From a virus (lineage: Duplodnaviria; Caudoviricetes), in IMG/VR virus record IMGVR_UViG_3300033407_000075, positions 1 to 35,485 of that record: a stretch of 35,485 nt of DNA; one strand, given 5' to 3'. The notes under the pieces are model-generated. The model saw only the letters and a list, made by a program, of their open reading frames with translations, ran no database searches and had not been told where the DNA came from. The translations under genes and the position numbers were made by a program. Below, in pieces: positions 8,276-30,919 of this stretch; the stretch's first letter is position 1, and every line of letters starts with the position of its first letter.

Positions 8276-9924
8276 TGGCAACCCGCGAAACCGAACCCGC
8301 GACCCCGCTGGAGCGTCTGATCCAGAGCCTGCGGTCGATCCTCGGCAACGAGTATTTCGGCAACGAGACATCGGTCAACCCGCAGTTGGCCACGCTGAAC
8401 CTCATCAAGATTCGCGCGCTCGGCGATTACACGCCCCAGCAGCAGGACGCGCTCGAATCCCTGTCCCGCAACGCGGGGCTGGACGTCGAGTTCTCGACCC
8501 TGTTCAAGAAGCCGTACTCGGACGTGCAGGCGCCGGGCATCGAAGACGCCTCGTTCCCTTCACTGGGGATGCGCTACAACGAGGCCCTCGACGTGATCCT
8601 CCAAGCGGACAGCCCGAGGGCCAGCGAGTTCAACTTCTACGACGACAAGAGTGCCGACATCCTGTCGCAGCAGAAGGCCCCCGCGCAGGGTGGCGACCCG
8701 ACCTCAATCGAAACTGTAGGTCCGTCGGGCACGGGCGGCGGCGGAACTACAGGTGGAGGTGGCGGTGGGGGAGGGTTCCCCGGCTCGTCCGACCTTCCTG
8801 CGGCAGGCACCGCACGTCAGGTCCCAGGTGGCTACGAGGTCTGGCGCGTCGATGGGCGTGACATCTACCTCGCCTACAAGGTGCCCGGTACCGACGTGCC
8901 GCTCGTGTGGAAGATCGAGAACCCCGACCGACTCAATGCCATCTTCGGAGGCGCCCCGCCCCCCGCGGACCAGGAGATCAGCTCGGCTGAGTTCAAGAGC
9001 CGCTCCCCGTGGCTCGGTGGGCTGTCGGCCGAGTTGCAGAACACCTCCGAGGAACCCTTCGTCCAGTTCATGTCGGACTTCAACGAGGCCGCCAAGCTTC
9101 GCCCGTGGCTGCGCGACCCGTCGATGCTTGCGGTCATGGCGGGCTCTTACCTCGAAGGGCGACCCCCGACGCAGGATGAGTTGAGTCAGACCGATTGGTG
9201 GAACGACCACACCGCCGACGAGCGCGCGTGGATGGAACGCTCCGTGACGCTCGGGCGTGACGAGATGGAACGGCTGCGCGACGACGCCTCGCGCGCCGTC
9301 GCCGAGTCGCTACGCCAGGCTGGGGTCAGCAACGCCTCGGACGACCTCGTCCGGTTCTTGGCTGAGCAGCGCCTGACCGGCAAGTGGTCGCAGACCTACA
9401 CGGCCGAGCAGATCCGCAAGTTGTCTGACCCCTTCGCGGCCGGTGAACTCGACACTGAGTTGACCAAGATCCTGAGTGGGTCCGAACTCGACACGACCCG
9501 CAAGGGCGAGGAGGAAGTGCGCCAGTTGATGACTCGCTGGCTCGGCCCCGAGATGGGCCGGTTCTCCGAGAAGAACGTCAAGGAGTGGGCGGGCAAGGTG
9601 CGCAACGACCCCGACGCGCAGACCGAACTCGTCGAGATGCTGCGCTCGCAGCGGCTCGCACTGCTGCCCAAGTACGACAACCCGAACCTGACCTACGAGG
9701 ACATCATCCAGCCGGTTCGGAACCTGGCCGCGAACGTGTGGGGCCAGCCCGTCGCCGACGAATCCCTGCTCGTGGACCTCGCCAACACGGGGGACTACAC
9801 GGTGATGGCGCAGCGACTGAGGCAGCAGGGGCTCAACACGGGCGTTCGGAAGGTCGTGCAGGATTCACTATCCGGGCTGGGCGGAACATCGCTCGGTGAG
9901 CAGGTCATAAGGAGCGCCGTCTGA
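8272..9924 (+). CDS. Probable internal virion protein
   Basis: 550 aa, ATGA overlap, Gly-rich linker between two domains. Confidence 0.6.
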   Translation: MMATRETEPATPLERLIQSLRSILGNEYFGNETSVNPQLATLNLIKIRALGDYTPQQQDALESLSRNAGLDVEFSTLFKKPYSDVQAPGIEDASFPSLGMRYNEALDVILQADSPRASEFNFYDDKSADILSQQKAPAQGGDPTSIETVGPSGTGGGGTTGGGGGGGGFPGSSDLPAAGTARQVPGGYEVWRVDGRDIYLAYKVPGTDVPLVWKIENPDRLNAIFGGAPPPADQEISSAEFKSRSPWLGGLSAELQNTSEEPFVQFMSDFNEAAKLRPWLRDPSMLAVMAGSYLEGRPPTQDELSQTDWWNDHTADERAWMERSVTLGRDEMERLRDDASRAVAESLRQAGVSNASDDLVRFLAEQRLTGKWSQTYTAEQIRKLSDPFAAGELDTELTKILSGSELDTTRKGEEEVRQLMTRWLGPEMGRFSEKNVKEWAGKVRNDPDAQTELVEMLRSQRLALLPKYDNPNLTYEDIIQPVRNLAANVWGQPVADESLLVDLANTGDYTVMAQRLRQQGLNTGVRKVVQDSLSGLGGTSLGEQVIRSAV

Positions 9925-11264
9925 TGAGCACATCATGGATGTACGGAAGCCCCTCGCAGGTGGAGGGATACACCTGGGACTCGGGCTCACAGTCCTACGT
10001 GCCGACGGGTCAGTTCTACGACACGGGCGCTGGGGGTGGCACCCCCGGTCCGTCGTCCGCTGGCGACACCGTCACGACGTCGGATGGCGTTGACTACGCC
10101 GCTGAGTCTCAGGCGATGTTCCCGTGGCTTACCGGGCAACTGCTGTCCACCTACGCCGACCTGTGGGCCGAGTCCGGCTCCGCAACGGCGGCGCTGGCCA
10201 AGCTCCGCGACACGTCACCCTACAAGTCCGTCTTCAAGGGCATCCGACGCGAGGACGGCACCCTGCGCATGGACGAGAACGCCTACATGTCGCAGATGTA
10301 CGGGTTCCGCGAGATCATGTCCGAGTTCGAGGTGGCAACCGGAGGCTCGGAGTTCGACCTGTCGCGCCTGATCGAGTTGGAGGTCGACGCCCGCGAGTTC
10401 GCATCCGTCATCGCCGAGGCCGTCACGAGGTTCCGTGAGCCCGGCGCGGCCGAGGACAACGGGCTCGTCTCCCAGTTCGTGTCGGGCTTCATGCAGTCCG
10501 GCTCACTGTCGGCTGCGCTGGAGCAGGTCCGTCAGACCTCCGAGTACGAGCAGGTGTTCGCCGGCAACCGCCGTGACGACGGCACGATCAGGATGGACGA
10601 GAACGCCTACTTCTCCTACAAGCGCGGGTGGGAGCGGATCTTCCTGTCTCGCGGGCTGAACCCCGAGCCCTTCGAGGCGCAAGGCCGTCTCGCCGAGGCG
10701 GTGCGCAACGAGGTGTCCATTCAGGAGTTGGAGGGCCGCGTGCAGGCCGTCGAGACGAACGTGCTCGGCAACACCGCGTCCGTGCGGCAGTTCTTCGTGG
10801 GCGCCTACGGCCAGGAGGGTGCGGCCTTCCTCCAGTCGGCGCAGGACGAGGGGTTCGGCCGCTCGACTGCTCTGGCGATGGCGCTCGACCCGACCGTCGG
10901 CAACGAGCTTCTGTCCCGCAGGATCACCGCGGCACAGATCGGTGGCGAGGCTGCCGTGCAGGGCTTCGCTCGGTCGGTGCAGCGCGCCGAGGAGTTGGCT
11001 CGCGCAGGTGTCTCACAGGCGCAGGCTCGCAACCTCTACTCGCAGGCTGGGCTCCAGTTGGGCGGTCTGTCGGCGGCGACCCGTAGGTTCCGTCGCGGTG
11101 ACACGAACCTGGCTGACTTCGAGTCGGCGTTCGCGCTCGGCGAGGCCGGTCAGCAGCAGAGGATCACCCGAGCGTTGCAGGACGAGGGCTCGTCCTTCTC
11201 GTCCACCCGTGACGTGATGCGCTCAGGGGACGGGTTCGGTCTGGCTGGACTCAGGCAGCAGTAG
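9924..11264 (+). CDS. Probable internal virion protein with internal duplication
   Basis: 446 aa, AAGGAG RBS, TGATG overlap, two copies of VFxGxRRxDGTxRMDENAY. Confidence 0.6.
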   Translation: MSTSWMYGSPSQVEGYTWDSGSQSYVPTGQFYDTGAGGGTPGPSSAGDTVTTSDGVDYAAESQAMFPWLTGQLLSTYADLWAESGSATAALAKLRDTSPYKSVFKGIRREDGTLRMDENAYMSQMYGFREIMSEFEVATGGSEFDLSRLIELEVDAREFASVIAEAVTRFREPGAAEDNGLVSQFVSGFMQSGSLSAALEQVRQTSEYEQVFAGNRRDDGTIRMDENAYFSYKRGWERIFLSRGLNPEPFEAQGRLAEAVRNEVSIQELEGRVQAVETNVLGNTASVRQFFVGAYGQEGAAFLQSAQDEGFGRSTALAMALDPTVGNELLSRRITAAQIGGEAAVQGFARSVQRAEELARAGVSQAQARNLYSQAGLQLGGLSAATRRFRRGDTNLADFESAFALGEAGQQQRITRALQDEGSSFSSTRDVMRSGDGFGLAGLRQQ

Positions 11265-11267
11265 CGG

Positions 11268-11352
11268 CGGAGGGCGGAGGAGTCGAACCCCTAGGCGGTG
11301 AACCTCACCCGTTTTCGAGACGGGCTGCCAGCCAACCCGGCAGTCACCCTCC
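11268..11352 (-). tRNA. tRNA-Ser(CGA), 8/4-type cloverleaf, no encoded CCA
   Basis: Minus strand: GGAGGGTG AC TGCCG GGTTGGC TGGCA G CCCGT CTCGAAA ACGGG TGAGGTTCACCGCCTA GGGG TTCGACT CCTC CGCCCTCC G. Long variable arm and G discriminator. Confidence 0.9.
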
Positions 11353-11353
11353 G

Positions 11354-11426
11354 CTGCTCGGGCAGGGGTCGAACCTGCAACCTTCCGGTTAACAGCCGGA
11401 CGCTCCGCCAGTTGAGCTACCGAGCA
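11354..11426 (-). tRNA. tRNA-Asn(GTT), no encoded CCA
   Basis: Canonical cloverleaf: TGCTCGG/CCGAGCA acceptor, GCTC/GAGC D stem, TCCGG CTGTTAA CCGGA anticodon arm, GCAGG TTCGACC CCTGC T arm. Confidence 0.95.
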
Positions 11427-11427
11427 G

Positions 11428-11502
11428 TAGCAGGGGAGGGAGTCGAACCCTCACTCGCGCGGATTATGAGCCCGCTCCAGCACCACTACTGGTTGCCCTG
11501 CG
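11428..11502 (-). tRNA. tRNA-Met(CAT), initiator-like, atypical
   Basis: CGCAGGG/CCCTGCT acceptor with a 1:72 mismatch and A discriminator, GCGGG CTCATAA TCCGC anticodon arm, GAGGG TTCGACT CCCTC T arm. Confidence 0.85.
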
Positions 11503-11572: not shown

Positions 11573-11601
11573 AGTGTAACTACCGCACGAGTGCTTGACA
11601 A
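11573..11601 (-). promoter_or_regulatory. Sigma70/SigA-type promoter for the tRNA cluster
   Basis: Minus strand TTGTCA (11601-11596), 17-nt spacer, TACACT (11578-11573), about 70 nt upstream of tRNA-Met. Confidence 0.7.
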
Positions 11602-11623
11602 GTGCTGAGCGGTCAGGTATAAA
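11595..11623 (+). promoter_or_regulatory. Sigma70/SigA-type promoter for the scaffold-capsid operon
   Basis: TTGACA (11595-11600), 17-nt spacer, TATAAA (11618-11623), in an otherwise GC-rich sequence. Confidence 0.8.
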
Positions 11624-11628
11624 TACGG

Positions 11629-11905
11629 GTGACGGTCAACGTAGTTGGCTCCGACTGCCGTCACGGCGAACGCTCACGCCGAGAGCCTACGAACGAGCAA
11701 CACCCCACGCCGGGTCTGCCCCCCGGCTGGGCGTAAACGGTGGGCACGCAAAGCAATAACGGCTCGGCCTCGATCCCGCGAGGCAGTTGTTGCCGATGCC
11801 GTGGCCACTTCCCTCTTTCTGGTCAGAACCCTTCCTGCCTCGCCGTCACACGGCGATCCCCCGCAATGCCGTGTCGGACACGAAGCGGGCGCAGGAGGAA
11901 ACGCG
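11629..11905 (+). ncRNA. Candidate structured 5' leader or ncRNA upstream of the scaffold gene
   Basis: Helices GTGACGG/CCGTCAC, GCCGGG/CCCGGC, GCAATAAC/GTTGTTGC, GCCTCG/CGAGGC, ACACGGC/GCCGTGT and CTTCCTGC/GCAGGAGG, the last covering the SD. Confidence 0.55.
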
Positions 11906-12409
11906 ATGAGCGACCAAGAGGTTCAGGTGCAGGATCTACTCGGCAAGGTGAGCGACGAGGCGCTGCGTAAGCAGTTCGCCGATGCGTTCAACTCACTGTC
12001 GGGTTCAACGCTGCGCAAGCAGCTCGACGAAGTGCAGGTTGAGAACAAGACCCTGAAGTCGGAGAAGCGACAGAGGGTCTACCGAGACGCTGGCATCCCA
12101 GATGCTGCGTTCGACGTGCTCGACAAGGTGTACGACGGCGAGCTTGAGGTCGACAAGATCCGCGAGTACGCGACGGAGAAGGGCTTTGCCCTCGGAGAAC
12201 CCGGCAAGCGGGAACCCGAGGCGACACCCGACCCGGCAGCGGCACGGACGGCTGGCGAGCAGCGCTTTACGCAGCTCGCCCGGGGAACCATCCCACCGCG
12301 CGATGCCTCCACTGATGACCAAATCGCGGCAGCCGAGAAGGATGGTGACTGGCCGACGTTCAACCGTCTCCAGGCCCAGAAGCTCGAAGCCGTACGTCGA
12401 GCCTCCTAA
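11906..12409 (+). CDS. Capsid scaffolding protein
   Basis: AGGAGG RBS then ATG 11906 (ORF-track start 11645 rejected). 167 aa, charged coiled coil with a C-terminal helix-turn-helix-like tail, directly before the capsid gene. Confidence 0.75.
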   Translation: MSDQEVQVQDLLGKVSDEALRKQFADAFNSLSGSTLRKQLDEVQVENKTLKSEKRQRVYRDAGIPDAAFDVLDKVYDGELEVDKIREYATEKGFALGEPGKREPEATPDPAAARTAGEQRFTQLARGTIPPRDASTDDQIAAAEKDGDWPTFNRLQAQKLEAVRRAS

Positions 12410-12422
12410 GGAGTGACCTAGC

Positions 12423-13634
12423 ATGGCCACCGTTTCCGCACTGGGCACCAACTACAACCTCCCGAACTATCACGGTCGGGTCCACTACCTCACCCCTTCG
12501 GACACGCCGTTCACTACGGCGCTGATGGGTACCTCTGGTCTGGAAGTCGAAACCGCTCGTACCTTCGAGTGGACGACCGCAGACCTGCGTGCCGCTGCGC
12601 AGAACACGGTCGTTGACGGCGATTCTGCCGGTACTCCCGAGAACCGCGACCGCAGCAACGTGTTCAACGTCCTTCAGACCCACCGCGAAGACGTCGGTGT
12701 GTCCTACGAGCGTGCGGCTCAGTTCGGCCAGTTCGACGGGCGCAACATCGACGCCGGTCCGAACATCGTGGACGAGGCCGCGTGGCAGATCGACCAGATG
12801 TGGAAGCAGATCAAGCGAGACATCGAGTACTCGCTGATCAACGGCGCCTACGTGCTGCCGGGCGACAACAACTCGGCCGCGCAGACCCGAGGCATCTTGG
12901 CCGCGATCACCACGAACGCGCTGGACTCGTCCGACGCGGACGCCAACGGCATCGGCGTGGCGACCTCGGCTGACTCGGATGACACGCTCGACCTGGACGC
13001 CGTTCACGGGTTGTCCGTCGGTGACGACTTCTACTTCTCGGACCTCACCGGGGGTAGCGGCGTCGATGAGGACACCCGCTACTACGTCATCGAGGTCGTG
13101 GACACCGACAGTCTGAAGTTCTCGGCGACCAAGGGCGGCGCTGCGGTGGACTTCGGGTCCGACATCACCGACGGGGTTTTCGTCCCCTACGCCGAGCCGA
13201 CGATCCAGTCGGTTGAGGCGCTCATGCAGTCCGCCTTCGACAATGGTGGCCTGAGCGAGTCGGAGATGGGCCTACTCGTCGTCAACTCCGGTCTGAAGCG
13301 GTGGTTGACCAAGGTCTTCGTGCACGACACGGGCACCAACGTCCGCTCCCGCAACGTGGGCGGCGCGAACGTGCAGGTCATCGAGACGTCCTTCGGTGAA
13401 CTCGGGATCATGCTCAACCGCTACGTCCCGCAGGGCACCCTGGCTGCCGTCTCGCTCGACCAGTGCAAGGCGCACGTCCGCGAGATCCCCGGCAAGGGCG
13501 TCATGTTCGCCGAGCCGCTTGGTAAGGATGGTGCGTCCGACAAGACGCAGCTCTACACCTCGGTCGGTCTGGAGTACGGCAACGAGGCGGCCCACGCCAA
13601 GGACACCGGCTTCACCGCGAACTCTCCCGCCTGA
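12423..13634 (+). CDS. Major capsid protein (SU10/DUF5309-like, HK97 fold) with inserted domain
   Basis: AAGGAG RBS. Motifs DTPF, FEW..ADL, NVLQTHREDVGVS, QIKRDIEYSLING, TRGI and EPLGKDGASDK fit this family. Confidence 0.85.
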   Translation: MATVSALGTNYNLPNYHGRVHYLTPSDTPFTTALMGTSGLEVETARTFEWTTADLRAAAQNTVVDGDSAGTPENRDRSNVFNVLQTHREDVGVSYERAAQFGQFDGRNIDAGPNIVDEAAWQIDQMWKQIKRDIEYSLINGAYVLPGDNNSAAQTRGILAAITTNALDSSDADANGIGVATSADSDDTLDLDAVHGLSVGDDFYFSDLTGGSGVDEDTRYYVIEVVDTDSLKFSATKGGAAVDFGSDITDGVFVPYAEPTIQSVEALMQSAFDNGGLSESEMGLLVVNSGLKRWLTKVFVHDTGTNVRSRNVGGANVQVIETSFGELGIMLNRYVPQGTLAAVSLDQCKAHVREIPGKGVMFAEPLGKDGASDKTQLYTSVGLEYGNEAAHAKDTGFTANSPA

Positions 13635-14030: not shown

Positions 14031-15119
14031 ATGGGACTTTTCGACGCGAGTAGGTTGGGTGGCGGTTCGTCCGCCAACCCCGTGACAGTGACGCTGGAGT
14101 CTTCCGACGGATCGGTGCTGCGGTACGAGTTCACCGCGAGCGGCTCCGACGTCTCGATCCAGTTCAAGGACGAGTCGGGCAACATTGGCTCAGCCATTTC
14201 GGTCGCCGCTGGCGCGACGGCCAATGGCCCTGCCTCCGATATTTCGGGGACGGGCAAGATCGAGATGGAGGTCACCTTCGATGCGACCGGCTTCCGCAGC
14301 TCCGAGTATCTGGAGTGCGAAGTCGAGACGGTCACCACGCGCGAGGTTGACCGTGCTCCGTGGGCTCAGTCGCTTCCCGGCGCTGACGGCGACCTGATCG
14401 CCTCTGACGGAGCGGGTGGGGTCAAGACCGTCGGTAGTGACACGTACCTCACGACGGACGACGCCCTCCTTGGCTACTCCCCCCGGACCTGCCTGTATCT
14501 GGATGGCACGTCCGGTAACTACACGTCCACCCCCGACGCGGGCTCGCTGGATATCACCGGCGACATCGACCTGCGGTTCAGAGGGGAACTGGACTGGGCT
14601 CCGGCCGCTATCCGCCAGTTCGCAAACAAGTCGGACGTGGGCTCGCAGCGGTCATGGGGCTGGCAGTTGCAGACCTCCGGGCTGCTGCTGCTCCGCTGGT
14701 CTAGCGACGGTGCAGGAACCGGCGAAATCGGTGTCCAGTCCACAGTGGCGGTCCCCGACGACGGGGCGCTGCGTTGGGTCCGTGTCACCCTGGACGTGGA
14801 CAACGGCGCATCGGGATATGACGTGAAGTTCTATACGTCCGACGACGGCACGACATGGTCCCAGCTTGGGGCGACGGTGACCGGCGGGTCGACAACGAAC
14901 GTGTTCGCCGGTACGGCCCCGGTGGAGGTCGGCCGTCGAGGCAACAACACGCAGTACATGGTCGGTGCCGTCCACAGGTTCGAAATGTACGACGGGATCG
15001 GCGGGACACTGGTCGCCGCATTCGATCCTTCTGCGCCGGTCCACCCCCGGTTCCGTGACTCGGCAGGCCGAGTCTGGTCCTACACCGGGTCGGCGTTCTC
15101 GTGGCAGCAGGCGGCGTGA
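14031..15119 (+). CDS. Fibre/receptor-binding protein with C-terminal LamG/concanavalin-like domain
   Basis: LYLDGTSGNY.STPD..SLDITGD, WVRVT.D, VKFY and VEVG motifs. N-terminal ~135 aa paralogous to the next gene. Confidence 0.65.
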   Translation: MGLFDASRLGGGSSANPVTVTLESSDGSVLRYEFTASGSDVSIQFKDESGNIGSAISVAAGATANGPASDISGTGKIEMEVTFDATGFRSSEYLECEVETVTTREVDRAPWAQSLPGADGDLIASDGAGGVKTVGSDTYLTTDDALLGYSPRTCLYLDGTSGNYTSTPDAGSLDITGDIDLRFRGELDWAPAAIRQFANKSDVGSQRSWGWQLQTSGLLLLRWSSDGAGTGEIGVQSTVAVPDDGALRWVRVTLDVDNGASGYDVKFYTSDDGTTWSQLGATVTGGSTTNVFAGTAPVEVGRRGNNTQYMVGAVHRFEMYDGIGGTLVAAFDPSAPVHPRFRDSAGRVWSYTGSAFSWQQAA

Positions 15120-15129
15120 TGGGGTTGAA

Positions 15130-17232
15130 GTGGCGAGGTTTCTGAATCGCAGGTTTGGTGGGGGCTCATCGCGGAACCCCGTCACGGTGGCTCTGGAGAA
15201 GGGTGACGGCACCGTCATCCGTTGTGAGTTCACTGCCCACGGTGAGGATGTAACCGTCCGGTTTACCGACGACGCTGGCGTCGTCGGGTCAGCTATCGCC
15301 ATCGCCGAGGGCGAAACGGTCACGGGGCCGGGCTCAGAGATCATGGGCAAGGGCTCGCTCGGCATGACCGCCACCTTCGCCACGTCCGGGCTTAGGTCGT
15401 CCTACCTCGAAGTGGATGTCCAGTCTGTCCCCGCTGACGTGGACTTCGTGTCCCAGGTGCCCGCCTGGCTGTCGGCGGATCTGGACGACGTGTTCGCCTC
15501 CGACGGTGATGGTGGCGTCAAGGTCCGCGACGGTGCTGGGTTCGCCATTCTAGACGAGGCCGAGACGGTCACGGGTCAGTGGAGGTTTCCTACTCTCGAC
15601 GTGGACAGACTCCGGGTGAAGTCCGGGCCACACATAGACGCCACACACCGTGATTTTGGGGCGGTTGGTGACGGCGTTACGGACGACACCGCCGCCATCC
15701 AGTCGGCCCTTGACGCCGCCGCCGCTGCGGGCGGCGGCGTGGTTTTACTCCCAGCGGGGACTTATTCGGTTACGAGCCTTACGGTTCTAGATAAGACCAC
15801 CCTACGGGGTGTAGGCTTCACATACGGGGCATCTAGCGGTGGCACGCAAGTTGTTGGCTCTGACCCGTCCCTCAATGTCGTGGAGTTGGGTCAGGTGGGG
15901 GGGTACCGTTCGGGTATCCGAATATGCGACATGCGCATCTCGGGTGGCCTGAACAACATCGCCAACATTGAGGCGGCCAGCCACGTCGAGTTGGAGCGGC
16001 TGGAGTTGTCAGGTGCGGCCAATGCCGCCATCTACGTCACCGGATGGGCCGAGGAATGGTATGTCAGCCACGTTCAGGCATACGGACCTACGGGTGGGTA
16101 CGCCTGGCAGGCGGTCAACGTGGGGGATTCCGTTGGCGGGCTAAACTACATCGACAAATCCACCATTAGGGACTGCATTTTCGCCGGGGGAACGAACGCG
16201 GTTCGCTGGGAGTTGACCGTCATAAACAGCGTCGTGTTCCAAAACTGCGTCTTCAACTCCACGACAAGCCACGGGTTCCACATGGGGGGAGGTGCCCGCG
16301 CCCTCTCGTTTATAGGTTGCTCGACCGAGGGCGTGGGGCAGGGGGGTAAGAATGATCGTACGACAGGAACTATCACCTCTGGAACCAACTCACTCACTGT
16401 GGCGTCTGCGGCCGGGTATCAGGTGGGCGACCAGATCACCGTCGGTGGTGCGGGGTCCTTGGGTCAGGATCTGTATGCAGCGGTGGACGCCATTGCGGGC
16501 ACAACTTTTACGCTAGACACGAACGCTTCGACCACTGTCAACTCCCAGCCGGTAACCAACGCCACGTCGGACTGCTGGCACTTTTCCTCATCCCCGTTCG
16601 CCCCGGCCGAGGTTTCGTTTGTCGGATGCTTCCTTTTCGGGGAGGGAAACAACGGCAACCAACGGTACTCAGTGAACGCAAACTCTGGGACGAACTTCCT
16701 TTTCTTTGGGTGCCATGTGAGTAGCAGCATCCCCATCTATGATCCGCTCAGTAAACACTCCTATATGGGCGGTGATGCTAGTGCGGTTAGGCAGCAGGTT
16801 TCTATTGCCGGGAACAACCATACGGGCCATGTATTCAATGGAGCCAAGAGAAACATCATCGGCTCCGCGCCCGGTGGCGACCTGCTTCTCTACCTGCGCG
16901 ACTCAAACGACGCGGCTACTGGGACACTAGGTCGGCTGGAGGTTCGCAAGAACGACCCGAACCGAACGAGACTTTTCCGCGTGGACACGAGCGACAACAG
17001 CGTGCGGCAGGACCGCTCGGACGGATCGTTGGTGGTCGAAGGCGCTCTCGACCACAACGGAGGCACCCTGGGGTTTTTCGGCGTCACCCCGGCTGCGCAA
17101 TCCTCGCCGTACACGGCCAGCAATGTCATTACGGATCGCTCATTCGACGCTAACGCGATGACACTCGATGAGTTGGCAGATGTTCTGGGAACCCTGATCG
17201 CAGACCTACAGGCCCTCGGTCTTCTGGGCTGA
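15130..17232 (+). CDS. Tailspike/fibre with pectate-lyase-like beta-helix (putative depolymerase)
   Basis: GTG 15130 chosen by alignment with the paralog. FGAVGDGVTDDTAAIQSALD...GGGVVLLPAGTY is the Pectate_lyase_3 N-cap, followed by beta-helix repeats and a helical C-terminus LADVLGTLIADLQALGLL. Confidence 0.8.
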   Translation: MARFLNRRFGGGSSRNPVTVALEKGDGTVIRCEFTAHGEDVTVRFTDDAGVVGSAIAIAEGETVTGPGSEIMGKGSLGMTATFATSGLRSSYLEVDVQSVPADVDFVSQVPAWLSADLDDVFASDGDGGVKVRDGAGFAILDEAETVTGQWRFPTLDVDRLRVKSGPHIDATHRDFGAVGDGVTDDTAAIQSALDAAAAAGGGVVLLPAGTYSVTSLTVLDKTTLRGVGFTYGASSGGTQVVGSDPSLNVVELGQVGGYRSGIRICDMRISGGLNNIANIEAASHVELERLELSGAANAAIYVTGWAEEWYVSHVQAYGPTGGYAWQAVNVGDSVGGLNYIDKSTIRDCIFAGGTNAVRWELTVINSVVFQNCVFNSTTSHGFHMGGGARALSFIGCSTEGVGQGGKNDRTTGTITSGTNSLTVASAAGYQVGDQITVGGAGSLGQDLYAAVDAIAGTTFTLDTNASTTVNSQPVTNATSDCWHFSSSPFAPAEVSFVGCFLFGEGNNGNQRYSVNANSGTNFLFFGCHVSSSIPIYDPLSKHSYMGGDASAVRQQVSIAGNNHTGHVFNGAKRNIIGSAPGGDLLLYLRDSNDAATGTLGRLEVRKNDPNRTRLFRVDTSDNSVRQDRSDGSLVVEGALDHNGGTLGFFGVTPAAQSSPYTASNVITDRSFDANAMTLDELADVLGTLIADLQALGLLG

Positions 17233-22868: not shown

Positions 22869-23093
22869 GTGGACCTGGCCGAGTTTCAACTGTCCGAGAA
22901 GCCCGGTGGTCGCTGCCGGTTCCCGCGACTCCTGACCGAGTTGGAGTCGGAGGACGCCGAGAAGCTCCTACAGGCGTTGCCCGCGCCCGACGTCCCACAT
23001 GTCGGCGTTCAGCGGTGGCTCAACGACCGCGGCATCGACATCAAATACAACGCTGTCCTGCGCCACCGCAACGGGCACTGCACTTGTGGCTGA
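22869..23093 (+). CDS. Small hypothetical protein (Cys/His C-terminus)
   Basis: 74 aa ending RHRNGHCTCG, overlapping the start of the phosphoesterase gene. Confidence 0.65.
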   Translation: MDLAEFQLSEKPGGRCRFPRLLTELESEDAEKLLQALPAPDVPHVGVQRWLNDRGIDIKYNAVLRHRNGHCTCG

Positions 23094-25308
23094 CCTGACG
23101 GAGTTCATGCAGTCCGGACCGAGTCGTAACGACCGCCACCCGAAGGGGTGGGCTCCCCGTGTAGACACCGAGACGGGTGTGGTGATCGTCCGCAGTGACG
23201 ACCCCGAGCCGCCCGGCGACTGGGACGAGATCATTCGTCAGTTCAAGTTGGACCCCGCCAAGTGGGAGGTTCTGTCGGACAGCGTCCACGTCCGCACCTG
23301 GGACATCAACGTCGGCGGGGGAGAGATCCAACGCTGCTACTACTACAAGACCGAGTTGCGACCCAGGCGCGCGAGCGCGACCGACGTAGACGAGATCATT
23401 TCGCGGGTGTCCAAGTGGCGCCCGCGCACTGTTACCACGGGTGTCGCCGAAGGAACCTACGTCGTGCCTGTTGGCGACCTCCAGTTGGGCAAGGCACTGA
23501 GCGACGACACGGAAATCCTCACAACGAGTGGGTGGAAGCGCCACGGAGACCTTCGTCCGGGTGACTACGTCTACGGGACCGACGGCAACCCGAAGCGTGT
23601 GCTCTCTGTTACTGGCTCCGCCCCGATGGAGTGCTTCCGAGTGGTCTTTGACAAAGGCGTCGAGATAGTCGCGTCTGGAAACCATCTATGGAGGGGCACG
23701 AGGCCCTACCGGATCGGCTCCAGAAGGGTGAAGGGCAAGCGCGTGGGTGGTCGCCCGGTCGACCGCGAACTGACATGGACGACCAGTGAGATTGCGAGCC
23801 TCAAGAGGCATGAGATCCGACCGGGGTACTTCACAACCGCCAGGCCCTTTCGGATCGACAACCCATCACCCATCGAACTCCCCGACGCCGACCTGCTGGT
23901 CGACCCGTACCTACTTGGCTTGTGGCTTGGGGACGGGAGCGCCCGAGCGGGATACATCACGAGCGGCTTCGAGGACGCCCCTCACTTGGACCACCTTGGC
24001 CACCGAATAGTTCCCAAGGGCCACGCCGCCACGATAAGGGTGCCAGGACTTACGGCCGACCTGCGTGCGCTCGGAGTTCTCGGCGACAAGCATGTCCCCG
24101 ACGAGTATCTGATGGCGTCACCGAAGCAGCGGATCGCGCTCCTTCAGGGACTCATGGACTCGGATGGATACTGTGGAGAGAGTGGTATTTGTGAGTTCTC
24201 GAACACCAACCAACAGTTGTCAGAGTCCGTTTATTGGATCGTCACGTCACTCGGCATGAAGGTGCGGTGGTCGTGGAAGTTCGGAACACTCCATGGCGAA
24301 GTGAAGTCTCCCGTCTTCCGAGTCCAGTTCACCCCACCGGAACACACCCCGGTCTTTCGCCTAGAGAGGAAGCTTGAGCGCCAGCGGCACGTACCACCCC
24401 AACACCAAATAACTCGCCGCTTCGTTCAGTATGTCGAGCCCGTTGGGACGCGCTCTGCTCAATGCATAACCCTTGAGGGGTCTATGTACCTGGCGGGTCG
24501 TGACCTCGTCCCGACGCACAACTCCGACGGGGGTGGATCACAAGGCATCGTGGACCGCTTCCTCGTAGAGATGGAGCGGGCCGCCCAACGTCTGCGCAAG
24601 CGCAACGGTCGCAAGGCTGCCGAACAAGTGTTCGTCCCCTGGATGGGCGATTGTATCGAGGGGCTGTGGTCGCAGAACAAGTCCCTGCGGATGCGGCTGG
24701 ACCTGACCGCCACCGAGCAGGTTCGCGTCTACCGCCACCTCATGCTCGCGCAGGTCAAGTTGTTCGCCCCGCTCACTGAGCGCCTCGTGGTCCCCGTCAT
24801 CCCCGGCAACCACGACGAGGCTGTCCGTGAGGGCGGGAAGATGGCGTCCTTCTGTGATGACTCGTGGGCCATCGAAGGCGCGTCGGCCGTGATGGCTGCC
24901 GTCAACGAGAACCCCGAGCTGCGCGAGAAGGTCGAGTTCGTGTTCCCCGGCCACGATCAACTCACGCTCACACTCGACGTGGACGGAACCTACGTCGGGC
25001 TGGCGCACGGCCATCAGTTCCCCGGAGGCGCCGACGGCTGGCGCAAGTGGTGGAACGACCAGGCGGGCGGCAGGACTCCGGTCGGGATGGCTGACGTGCT
25101 CCTGGCCGCACACCTGCATCACCTGAGAGTTCAGGACCACGGGGACGGCCGACTGTTCCTTCAGATCCCCGCACTCGACGGGGGCTCGACGTGGTTCAAG
25201 CACCGTCGCGGCGAAGCATCCCCGCCACGAGTGGTCACCTTCTTCACCAAGGACGGCCACGTGTGGGGTCTCGACCCGGTCACGACCAAACCAGAGGCAG
25301 TTGCATGA
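23086..25308 (+). CDS. Calcineurin-like metallophosphoesterase (Mre11-like), intein-containing
   Basis: Motifs GDLQLGK, MGDCIE, PGNHD, AHGH and AHLHH. GTG start at 23086. Confidence 0.85.
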   Translation: MADLTEFMQSGPSRNDRHPKGWAPRVDTETGVVIVRSDDPEPPGDWDEIIRQFKLDPAKWEVLSDSVHVRTWDINVGGGEIQRCYYYKTELRPRRASATDVDEIISRVSKWRPRTVTTGVAEGTYVVPVGDLQLGKALSDDTEILTTSGWKRHGDLRPGDYVYGTDGNPKRVLSVTGSAPMECFRVVFDKGVEIVASGNHLWRGTRPYRIGSRRVKGKRVGGRPVDRELTWTTSEIASLKRHEIRPGYFTTARPFRIDNPSPIELPDADLLVDPYLLGLWLGDGSARAGYITSGFEDAPHLDHLGHRIVPKGHAATIRVPGLTADLRALGVLGDKHVPDEYLMASPKQRIALLQGLMDSDGYCGESGICEFSNTNQQLSESVYWIVTSLGMKVRWSWKFGTLHGEVKSPVFRVQFTPPEHTPVFRLERKLERQRHVPPQHQITRRFVQYVEPVGTRSAQCITLEGSMYLAGRDLVPTHNSDGGGSQGIVDRFLVEMERAAQRLRKRNGRKAAEQVFVPWMGDCIEGLWSQNKSLRMRLDLTATEQVRVYRHLMLAQVKLFAPLTERLVVPVIPGNHDEAVREGGKMASFCDDSWAIEGASAVMAAVNENPELREKVEFVFPGHDQLTLTLDVDGTYVGLAHGHQFPGGADGWRKWWNDQAGGRTPVGMADVLLAAHLHHLRVQDHGDGRLFLQIPALDGGSTWFKHRRGEASPPRVVTFFTKDGHVWGLDPVTTKPEAVA
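23494..24522 (+). mobile_element. Class 3 intein (343 aa) with LAGLIDADG homing endonuclease
   Basis: Begins ALSDDTEILTTSGW and ends VPTHN before Ser+1. Block B ASGNHLW, block F AQCITL, LAGLIDADG motifs LLGLWLGDG and LLQGLMDSDG. Confidence 0.9.
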
Positions 25309-29991: not shown

Positions 29992-30891
29992 TCATGCGGC
30001 ATCGAACTCAGACTCAAGAAGCCGGCGCTTGTACCACTCGGGTAGACCCCTCACGGCGCCCCGCGTGACCTTCGCCCGAGCCCACTTCCACAGGGCTTCT
30101 TTGATCTCGTCCTCGCATTCCTCGGCGAGATCGGATTGGGCGGCCCTTACGAGCGCGCCAATGTCACGAGGGCCACCTTCGAGCACCCCGTCGTCGCGCA
30201 GGTGCTGGACGGCCTTCTCCCACCTGACTTCATTCTGGTACTGATCCACGAGCGACTGAATAATGTCGCCACTGTTGGGGTTGGCCTTCTTCCAGTCCTT
30301 GGCGTGCTTCTCCTTGAACGCCTCGGATACGTGCTTGCCCATCAGCGCCTTGCCATCGCGCCCGAACCGTGCGTGGTTCTTAACAACGATGCCCTCGACC
30401 TTGCAGCCTCCGAGCGCGGCGTCACGGGAGAGCAGCTCGTCCACGAGGTCGAGACTGTCAAGCTCCCCGTAGTGCATCCGTGGCACGGACTCAATGCCGA
30501 TGCGCGCTGCCTCGTCATCGCGGTCATCGGGGGCGAGGAAATCACTCCGAGCCACCTCGACGTCGAAGACGATCAGGTGGTCCTCGGGGGTCCGGTCGTA
30601 GGCGAGCGTGTTGTGCTTGGGCTTAGCCAGGTACTCCGCGCGGTAGGCCCAGCCGGGGGTGAGTCGGTCAGCCCTGCGTTGGACGCTTTCGACGGCCCTG
30701 TCGAACATCTGAGGGGCATCGAGAATGAGCTGTTGGTTCTTCGACCGGCAGCACAACTCCCCGTCGATGATCCCGAAGGAGAACTGCGACCCATCGACCT
30801 TCTCCTCGACAGACACGGGTCCATCGCGGAGCCCGTCCAGTGCGGGGTGCCCGAGGTTCCAGACCTTCGGGTAACTGTGGATCTCGGCCAT
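29992..30891 (-). CDS. ATP-dependent RNA ligase (Rnl2-like nucleotidyltransferase)
   Basis: YPK, EEKVDGS (motif I), AEY, VFDV, EGIVVK and GKHVSEAFKE motifs. AAGGGAG RBS. Confidence 0.82.
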   Translation of the reverse strand: MAEIHSYPKVWNLGHPALDGLRDGPVSVEEKVDGSQFSFGIIDGELCCRSKNQQLILDAPQMFDRAVESVQRRADRLTPGWAYRAEYLAKPKHNTLAYDRTPEDHLIVFDVEVARSDFLAPDDRDDEAARIGIESVPRMHYGELDSLDLVDELLSRDAALGGCKVEGIVVKNHARFGRDGKALMGKHVSEAFKEKHAKDWKKANPNSGDIIQSLVDQYQNEVRWEKAVQHLRDDGVLEGGPRDIGALVRAAQSDLAEECEDEIKEALWKWARAKVTRGAVRGLPEWYKRRLLESEFDAA

Positions 30892-30919
30892 TCTCAACTC
30901 CCTTGTCCGGCAGTTCCGC

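What the first reader, a model, noticed from the sequence alone, without database searches (positions are those of the whole stretch)
11629..11905. ~277-nt structured RNA leader that buries the scaffold ribosome-binding site and has switch-like alternative pairings
Seen: the region between promoter and scaffold ATG is almost all helices. CTTCCTGC-CTCGC (11831-11843) pairs with GCGGG-C-GCAGGAGG (11885-11898), hiding the SD, with ACACGGC/GCCGTGT above it. The 5' GTGACGG can pair with CCGTCAC at either 11658 or 11843, and the second would disturb the SD hairpin. TCACGGCG (11661)/TGCCGTGG (11797) could close a middle domain. Possible pseudoknots are CGTAG/CTACG (11640/11687) and TGCCC/GGGCA (11717/11742). 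Established: P22 scaffold autoregulates post-transcriptionally. Inference: an undescribed cis-regulatory RNA that explains how a host-type promoter can drive late genes, or a trans-acting phage ncRNA.
Basis: partly seen in the sequence, partly recalled or inferred. Interest (0 to 1): 0.75.

Follow-up and report, generated by a model that had tools for sequence, protein, structure and literature searches.

The report
Triple-pseudoknot leader before phage scaffold gene
The 277 bases ahead of this phage's likely capsid-scaffold gene are predicted to fold into three consecutive RNA pseudoknots, whose base pairs are kept through matched mutations in related phages, and these knots likely shield the capsid message from decay while leaving its ribosome site open.

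Summary
Its folding energy is ordinary (z -1.2) and Rfam has no match. Comparison with related phages (29-70% GC) points to three H-type pseudoknots in a row. In M, 11778-86 pairs with 11835-43: 45 of 45 Watson-Crick cells in five lineages, 4 of 9 pairs doubly changed. B (11844-11889) ends 16 nt before the start codon; a finder fixed beforehand recovered it in 8 of 11 held-out lineages, against 1.0 expected. Translation from 11645 is not supported. Most likely role (untested): a cis element that blocks 5'-3' decay and presents the ribosome site. Main rival: an operator for scaffold or capsid feedback. Earlier notes of this scan report tandem-pseudoknot leaders before scaffold or capsid genes on other DNA.

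The parts
11595..11623 (+). Promoter-like site: -35 TTGACA (11595-11600), 17-nt spacer, -10 TATAAA (11618-11623); start site inferred near 11629
   Evidence: Sequence; boxes of the same spacing end 233-282 nt before the scaffold start in 5 of 5 core lineages and are listed in 12 of 27 leaders scanned. Not listed by the scanner.
11629..11691 (+). 5' hairpin 11629-36/11657-64; its loop (CGTAG 11640-44) could pair with CTACG 11687-91 as a fourth pseudoknot
   Evidence: Hairpin probability 0.56-0.77. The extra pairing is seen in the sequence only; no covariation test was possible.
11704..11746 (+). Pseudoknot A: stem 11704-14/11722-31, loop UGCCC 11717-21 pairs with GGGCA 11742-46
   Evidence: (relaxed finder): same place in L005 GUGCCG/CGGCAC, L103 GUGCC/GGCAC, L008 CGCCC/GGGCG; analogous knots in L002 and L227. 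The strict finder recovered it in 4 of 5 rows, with other stem choices.
11753..11843 (+). Pseudoknot M: stem 11753-59/11787-93; loop strand 11778-86 pairs with 11835-43; the long linker holds a pyrimidine tract (11808-34). A local rival hairpin 11767-72/11779-84 competes for the loop strand
   Evidence: 9 of 9 Watson-Crick pairs in each of 5 core lineages (45 of 45; slid controls 9-19), double changes at 4 of 9 pairs. Local rival strong in 3 of 4 lineages of the window's clade.
11844..11889 (+). Pseudoknot B: basal helix 11844-46/11880-82, internal loop C11847 / 11875-79, stem 11848-54/11868-74, loop CCCGC 11860-64 pairs with GCGGG 11885-89
   Evidence: (0 of 150 shuffles as good).
11893..11898 (+). 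Shine-Dalgarno AGGAGG; free in the pseudoknot fold, paired with 11831-38 in the rival nested fold
11906..12409 (+). Likely capsid scaffold gene, 167 aa
   Evidence: Position before the capsid gene, where annotated phages with a related capsid have a scaffold gene; nearest named Atlas clusters are scaffold families at score 0.90-0.91, a lead only; no Pfam match. 15 homologs begin at the same Met.
12423..13634 (+). Major capsid protein, SU10 family
   Evidence: Pfam PF17236 E 1e-63; PHROG 1328.

Best explanation
The stretch is the likely 5' leader of the scaffold-capsid message and is predicted to fold into a chain of at least three H-type pseudoknots, whose pairings covary among related phages, that likely block 5'-to-3' decay of the message and would leave the Shine-Dalgarno sequence single-stranded just past the last knot. 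Shown by comparison: helices M and B, the short basal helix of B, and the spacing of B to the start codon (median 16 nt). Less firmly shown: knot A. Inferred: the start site, that the knots form together in the cell, that host RNase J stalls at them, and that the result is a long-lived, well-translated head-protein message. In the window's clade a rival nested fold (local hairpin plus SD-burying helix) has similar predicted stacking energy and may add an off state.
For: Knot B: 13 of 20 discovery leaders; 8 of 11 held-out lineages with the finder unchanged, 1.0 expected from shuffles; 3 of 34 other starts in the window, 12 of 66 other starts in related loci, 2 of 46 scaffold-position starts of distant SU10-capsid phages. 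Its loop pair is A-U in 5 lineages and G-C in the window and L002, which are not sisters. Helix M: 45 of 45 cells, 4 of 9 pairs doubly changed. Basal helix: 14 of 23 own pairs against 17% of 506 swapped, 0 of 5000 permutations. Marine relatives: 0 of 39 loop-helix columns vary against 22 of 90 unpaired; all 484 cells paired. 56 strict knots in 25 leaders against 23.4 expected. SD outside the knot in 20 of 21. The layout stem, internal loop, stem, apical loop paired to a 3' strand resembles plant-virus xrRNA, which blocks RNase J1 in vitro (passages of 10.1101/262683; PMC8374639). RNase J is present in 37 of 41 genomes of the bacterial family in whose assemblies two relatives lie.
Against: No probing, decay or expression data exist for it. 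Most pseudoknots do not stop exonucleases; the threaded ring that defines xrRNA could not be tested, and the strand from loop to 3' partner is 16-26 nt here against a 15-16 nt ring, by a measure that may not be the same. The fixed distance to the start codon fits a translational operator at least as well. Knot B was missed in 7 of 20 and 3 of 11 leaders; helix M stood out from shuffles in only 10 of 24 leaders. Nested folding prefers the SD-buried state in this phage: stacking sums are about -58 for the rival and -53 kcal/mol for the knots before loop costs (my sums). Lineages are few (5 in the core) and partly related, and core alignments were anchored by motif, since MAFFT misaligned them. 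The host is inferred from assembly bins only.
Confidence: 0.42

Rival explanations
1. The knots form a translational operator: free scaffold (or capsid) protein binds one conformer and shifts the balance between the pseudoknot fold (SD free) and the nested fold (SD buried), or traps the 30S subunit beside knot B, giving feedback control of head-protein synthesis.
For: Knot B abuts the SD. In the window the strand 11835-43 has two strong partners (M, -21.2; SD side, -24.9, rank 1 of 22) and the M loop strand has a local rival. In L103 one G-to-A change in the M strand is matched in the distal strand and beside the SD. The rpsO operator switches between pseudoknot and double hairpin and binds S15 (abstract of PMC3985624); T4 gp32 binds a leader pseudoknot (passages of PMC3014915). 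P22 scaffold autoregulation is recalled; only the title was seen.
Against: SD-burying pairing is not kept family-wide: 3012 of 10000 permutations over 22 leaders, 5404 among 16 GC-rich, 1542 among the core five. The local rival is weak in L103. Loop-helix sequences vary freely; only one C (19 of 23) and one G (17 of 23) recur in B. No RNA-binding family was found for the protein.
Confidence: 0.3
2. An unpaired part of the leader pairs with the end of the scaffold gene or the capsid ribosome site about 500-600 nt downstream and couples capsid translation to scaffold translation.
For: Among 16 GC-rich lineages leaders pair better with their own capsid start region than with others' (1 of 10000 permutations). 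In the window, loop 11761-68 is complementary to 12396-403, just before the scaffold stop. Lead taken from note e1-8689708.
Against: Own partner ranks first in only 2 of 22, and the leader position varies from 39 to 238 nt before the start. A fixed-position test in the seven nearest lineages was not significant (710 of 5040; the L002 query came out empty), and 5 of 42 other downstream windows match the window's loop as well. Shared base composition can inflate.
Confidence: 0.1
3. The region is a stand-alone small RNA acting in trans or packaged into heads.
For: Own promoter-like site and dense conserved structure over 230-280 nt.
Against: No terminator-like site before the scaffold start; the last knot keeps a fixed distance to the start codon, 8-23 nt in 21 leaders.
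Confidence: 0.07
4. The pairings are chance products of GC-rich sequence, or the stretch is an N-terminal coding extension from TTG 11645.
For: Folding z-scores of the whole leader are not significant in most lineages. The frame is open for 83-89 codons before the ATG in 3 of 5 core lineages.
Against: Held-out recovery, covariation and swapped controls; knot B is also found at 32-34% GC (L355, L359). The upstream translations are unalike, L002 has a stop directly before the ATG, L227 has a stop in the match region, and 15 homologs start at the same Met.
Confidence: 0.05

Closest known systems
Plant-virus exoribonuclease-resistant RNAs (dianthovirus and luteovirus xrRNA; PMC8374639 parts 1-2 of 5 read, passages of 10.1101/262683)
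   Same: Two stacked stems joined by an internal loop, an apical loop that pairs with a 3' strand, a possible stem-loop-to-pseudoknot switch; copies in tandem (as in flavivirus 3' UTRs); can lie ahead of coding sequence.
   Different: DNA phage of bacteria, at the 5' end of a primary transcript. Basal helix 3-4 bp and upper stem 5-10 bp. No Rfam or sequence match. Ring threading and nuclease resistance not shown.
Pseudoknot translational operators: E. coli rpsO (abstract of PMC3985624) and T4 gene 32 (passages of PMC3014915)
   Same: H-type pseudoknot in the leader of the regulated gene; in the window a competing hairpin fold, as in rpsO.
   Different: Three or four knots instead of one. T4's knot lies 67 nt upstream with an A+U-rich tract over the ribosome site; here about 16 nt and no such tract. 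No binding protein is known.
GP20-a (RF02991), GP20-b (RF03003) and other candidate motifs before phage head genes (section 2.5 of PMC10690425)
   Same: Predicted cis-acting RNA directly before a phage head-assembly gene (that GP20 is a scaffold is recalled); function untested.
   Different: No match to these or any Rfam family in the window's leader or 18 related loci; the downstream gene has no PF06810 match. The paper's alignment files could not be read, so overlap with one of its 8,495 DNA-virus candidates is not excluded.
P22 scaffolding-protein autoregulation (Wyckoff and Casjens 1985; recalled, title seen in a reference list)
   Same: Post-transcriptional control at the scaffold gene is the precedent for the operator reading.
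   Different: No sequence link to P22 gp8; nothing here shows that the scaffold binds RNA.

Membership tests
H-type pseudoknot | Hairpin loop pairs with a 3' strand, with linkers long enough to cross both helices | tested here: met
   B: L1 4, L2 2, L3 10 nt; L1 1-6, L3 9-18 nt in 21 leaders. A: L1 2, L3 10 nt. M: loop strand enclosed by a 7-8 bp stem, long L1 and L3.
H-type pseudoknot | Both helices kept through compensatory changes | tested here: met
   core; marine stems; their loop helices never vary, so they carry no covariation within that set.
Plant-virus xrRNA | Stem, internal loop, stem, apical loop pairing with a downstream strand | tested here: met
   Knot B with its basal helix; feature list.
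Plant-virus xrRNA | Ring of about 15-16 nt encircling the 5' strand | not testable with these tools
   No RNA 3D tool; the nearest proxy gives 16-26 nt.
Plant-virus xrRNA | Stops Xrn1 or RNase J1 without protein | not testable with these tools
   Needs a digestion assay.
Plant-virus xrRNA | Match to a catalogued model | tested here: not met
   No Rfam hit over 11629-11905 at E up to 10.
Pseudoknot operator (rpsO, T4 gene 32 type) | Pseudoknot next to the ribosome site of the regulated gene | tested here: met
   Median 16 nt to the start codon in 21 leaders.
Pseudoknot operator (rpsO, T4 gene 32 type) | Conserved alternative fold that changes access to the SD | tested here: inconclusive
   Strong in the window, L005, L103, L233; not above swapped partners family-wide.
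Pseudoknot operator (rpsO, T4 gene 32 type) | Gene product binds the leader and represses | not testable with these tools
   Needs binding and reporter assays.
GP20-a / GP20-b motifs | Covariance-model match and GP20 (PF06810) gene downstream | tested here: not met

The most novel reading that the evidence does not exclude
The knots are true exoribonuclease-resistant RNAs of a bacterial virus, arrayed to stall host RNase J at the head-gene message, and in the window's clade they double as a two-state switch in which one 9-nt strand chooses between the middle knot and the ribosome site in response to free scaffold protein.
Probability: 0.15. Interest if true: 0.85.

Novelty: new variant of a known kind. 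Interest (0 to 1): 0.6.

Why it matters
How phages keep up and balance the large output of scaffold and capsid protein is poorly mapped at the RNA level. Here a clade spanning 29-70% GC keeps a chain of pseudoknots at one place while the sequence turns over. This gives short defined RNAs with natural compensatory variants, on which two open questions can be tested directly: whether xrRNA-like roadblocks work in bacteria, where the review read lists only RNA viruses, and what RNA target a scaffold feedback loop would use.

Tried and rejected
Folding-energy significance: not found. Rfam: no hit in the leader or in 18 related loci. Nucleotide search of 50,697 phage records: only chance pieces of at most 8% of the query; the upstream marker gene has no match there, so no cultured close relative was found. 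Scaffold-based locus searches found nothing. A loose DNA pattern gave 120 mostly unrelated loci, which were not used. A capsid-based rescan gave no new core lineage by identity; its 80 loci were not analysed further. Middle domain: 3-7 bp in 4 other lineages. MAFFT alignments of the core were misregistered, so no covariance model was built and pair counts were anchored by motif. In one search the L019 row of helix M anchored on a tied alternative site and is not counted. L352 was dropped from the held-out set for a doubtful start, and 5 of the 80 loci had no scaffold match. Sequencing runs: no RNA holder listed; contigs laid gave no usable variants. PDB search with the scaffold profile: nothing relevant. 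Ten paper searches listed no description of this leader; two searches returned none at all. Wyckoff and Casjens 1985 is not held, the supplement of PMC5737381 could not be read, and of PMC10690425 only files 3, 5 and 6 were searched; these unseen files bear on the claim that the motif is uncatalogued.

Full report
Setting. The window is a near-complete phage record with portal, virion proteins, an SU10-family capsid gene at 12423-13634, tail genes, terminase and integrase. The finding lies between three minus-strand tRNA genes (11266-11502) and a 167-aa gene at 11906-12409 that precedes the capsid gene. That gene is called scaffold by position and by weak Atlas neighbours; it has no Pfam match. 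Relatives occur in assembly bins titled Nitriliruptoraceae and Devosia and a capsid homolog is labelled Acidimicrobiia, so an actinobacterial host is inferred, not shown.

Observation. The leader folds no better than its shuffles: z -1.16, -1.43, 66% paired against 61%. Rfam has no hit over 11629-11905 at E up to 10. In the nested ensemble the SD helix forms (0.8-0.97), the 5' alternative at 11843 has probability 0.013 and the middle domain 0.0. The long frame from TTG 11645 is not supported: 15 homologs start at the Met of 11906, upstream translations are unalike and L002 has a stop directly before its ATG.

Homologs. Scans with capsid alignments and with the gene upstream of the leader (9924-11264) gave five core lineages (window, L005, L103, L008, L002), two next relatives (L019, L227) and many distant ones down to about 30% GC. 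The five core lineages have a promoter-like site ending 233-282 nt before the scaffold start. Most relatives keep a gap of about 175-330 nt after the upstream gene, some longer where another gene or element is inserted.

The variable pair is A-U in five lineages and G-C in the window and L002, and these two are not sisters in the capsid tree. A strict H-type finder, set up after I had looked at these leaders, found such a knot before the SD in 13 of 20 representatives, several of them related; 0 of 150 shuffles of the window matched its score. Controls: 3 of 34 other starts in the window, 12 of 66 other starts in related loci, 2 of 46 scaffold-position starts of distant SU10-capsid phages (some of those starts may be miscalled), and 10 of 1180 sliding windows as strong. 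The last scan then served as a held-out set: of 80 loci, 5 had no scaffold match and 1 was dropped; the 74 left reduced to 11 lineages under 70% alike to anything seen before. The unchanged finder hit 8 of 11, with 1.0 expected. The knot ends a median 16 nt before the start codon, with the SD outside it in 20 of 21 leaders. A 3-4 bp basal helix joins the flank to the long linker in 14 of 23 leaders against 17% of swapped partners (0 of 5000 permutations), with a recurring C (19 of 23) and G (17 of 23) at the internal loop.

All 45 cells are Watson-Crick in the five core lineages, 4 of 9 pairs change on both sides, and slid controls give 9-19. The upstream strand sits in the loop of a stem. Among 24 leaders, 10 have an 8-10 bp helix at this place that at most 5 of 100 shuffles reach, 12 have a weaker one not separable from shuffles, and 2 have none.

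Knot A and the rest. CGTAG/CTACG could make a fourth knot at the 5' end; I could not test it. Over 25 leaders the strict finder counts 56 knots against 23.4 expected. Eleven close marine relatives fit four tandem knots: 484 of 484 cells paired, two stem pairs doubly changed, loop helices invariant, and 0 of 39 loop-helix columns vary against 22 of 90 unpaired.

Is it a switch? In the window the rival is strong (-24.9 kcal/mol, first of 22), as in L005, L103 and L233, but over 22 leaders own partners are no better than swapped ones (3012 of 10000). A local hairpin that would capture the M loop strand is strong in 3 of 4 lineages of the window's clade. My sums of the stacking terms are about -53 for the knots and -58 for the rival, before loop costs and tertiary contacts. 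An off state in this clade is therefore possible, but it is not what the family conserves. A lead from note e1-8689708, pairing with the capsid start region, gave a family-level signal (1 of 10000 among 16 GC-rich lineages) with no fixed position, and was not significant in the nearest seven (710 of 5040).

Mechanism. I commit to a cis element that protects the head-gene message from 5'-3' decay and presents the ribosome site (0.42). Grounds: knots repeated along the leader, shape kept while sequence is not, SD left free, a layout like plant-virus xrRNA, which stops RNase J1 in vitro, and RNase J in 37 of 41 genomes of the family holding two relatives. None of this shows resistance; most pseudoknots have none. 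The operator reading (0.30) rests on the fixed spacing, the rival fold and the precedents of rpsO (abstract), T4 gene 32 (passages) and P22 (recalled; title only). I put the chance that knots M and B are real selected pairings at about 0.9.

Known kinds and novelty. Structured leaders before phage head genes are known as candidates (GP20-a, GP20-b and six more; section 2.5 of PMC10690425), and single leader pseudoknots are known as operators. A chain of them at a scaffold gene matched no Rfam family and was not listed in ten paper searches. The alignment files of PMC10690425 and the supplement of PMC5737381 could not be seen. Passages of PMC5737381 and PMC7881722 held nothing on this. Earlier notes of this scan describe four- and six-pseudoknot leaders of scaffold or capsid genes in marine phages and xrRNA-like readings of other phage leaders. 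I reached the pseudoknot and xrRNA readings before opening those notes, and they are not independent support; sequence look-ups found no shared DNA or protein. Verdict: new variant of a known kind, structure well supported, function untested; interest 0.6.

Noticed in passing
window 11266-11502 (-), promoter-like site 11601-11573 (-): Three abutting tRNA genes (Met, Asn, Ser) are read away from the leader, from a site whose -35 box overlaps the leader's -35 box on the other strand. None of 11 related loci scanned has tRNAs; the same slot holds a small gene in L002 and an HNH-like frame in L231 (recognised by eye).
   Followed up: partly
window 22999-25308 (+): The terminase gene appears to carry an intein: a weak homing-endonuclease match at residues 366-424 and a His-Asn-Ser end near residue 508. 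It lies far from the portal gene.
   Followed up: partly
window 14031-15119 and 14965-17232 (+): Two neighbouring tail genes share a duplicated module of about 95 aa (52 identities over 93) ahead of different C-terminal domains; the second probably starts near 15120.
   Followed up: partly
window 12423-13634: The capsid protein has an insertion of about 80 aa that 7 of the 26 rows of the alignment lack.
   Followed up: no
window 9924-11264 (+): The gene before the leader has an internal repeat and is a good marker of this clade, yet matches none of 50,697 deposited phage records.
   Followed up: partly
window 11618-11625: The -10 region reads TATAAATA, which I recall as the T4 late-promoter word; the related leaders have ordinary -10 boxes, so it may be chance.
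   Followed up: no
window 29992-30897 (-): RNA ligase gene (PF09414) in a phage that also carries tRNAs; possibly tRNA repair.
   Followed up: no
L376 leader (with L394, L398): These AT-rich relatives lack knot B; by eye a hairpin loop before the SD is complementary to an upstream strand instead, the reverse arrangement.
   Followed up: no
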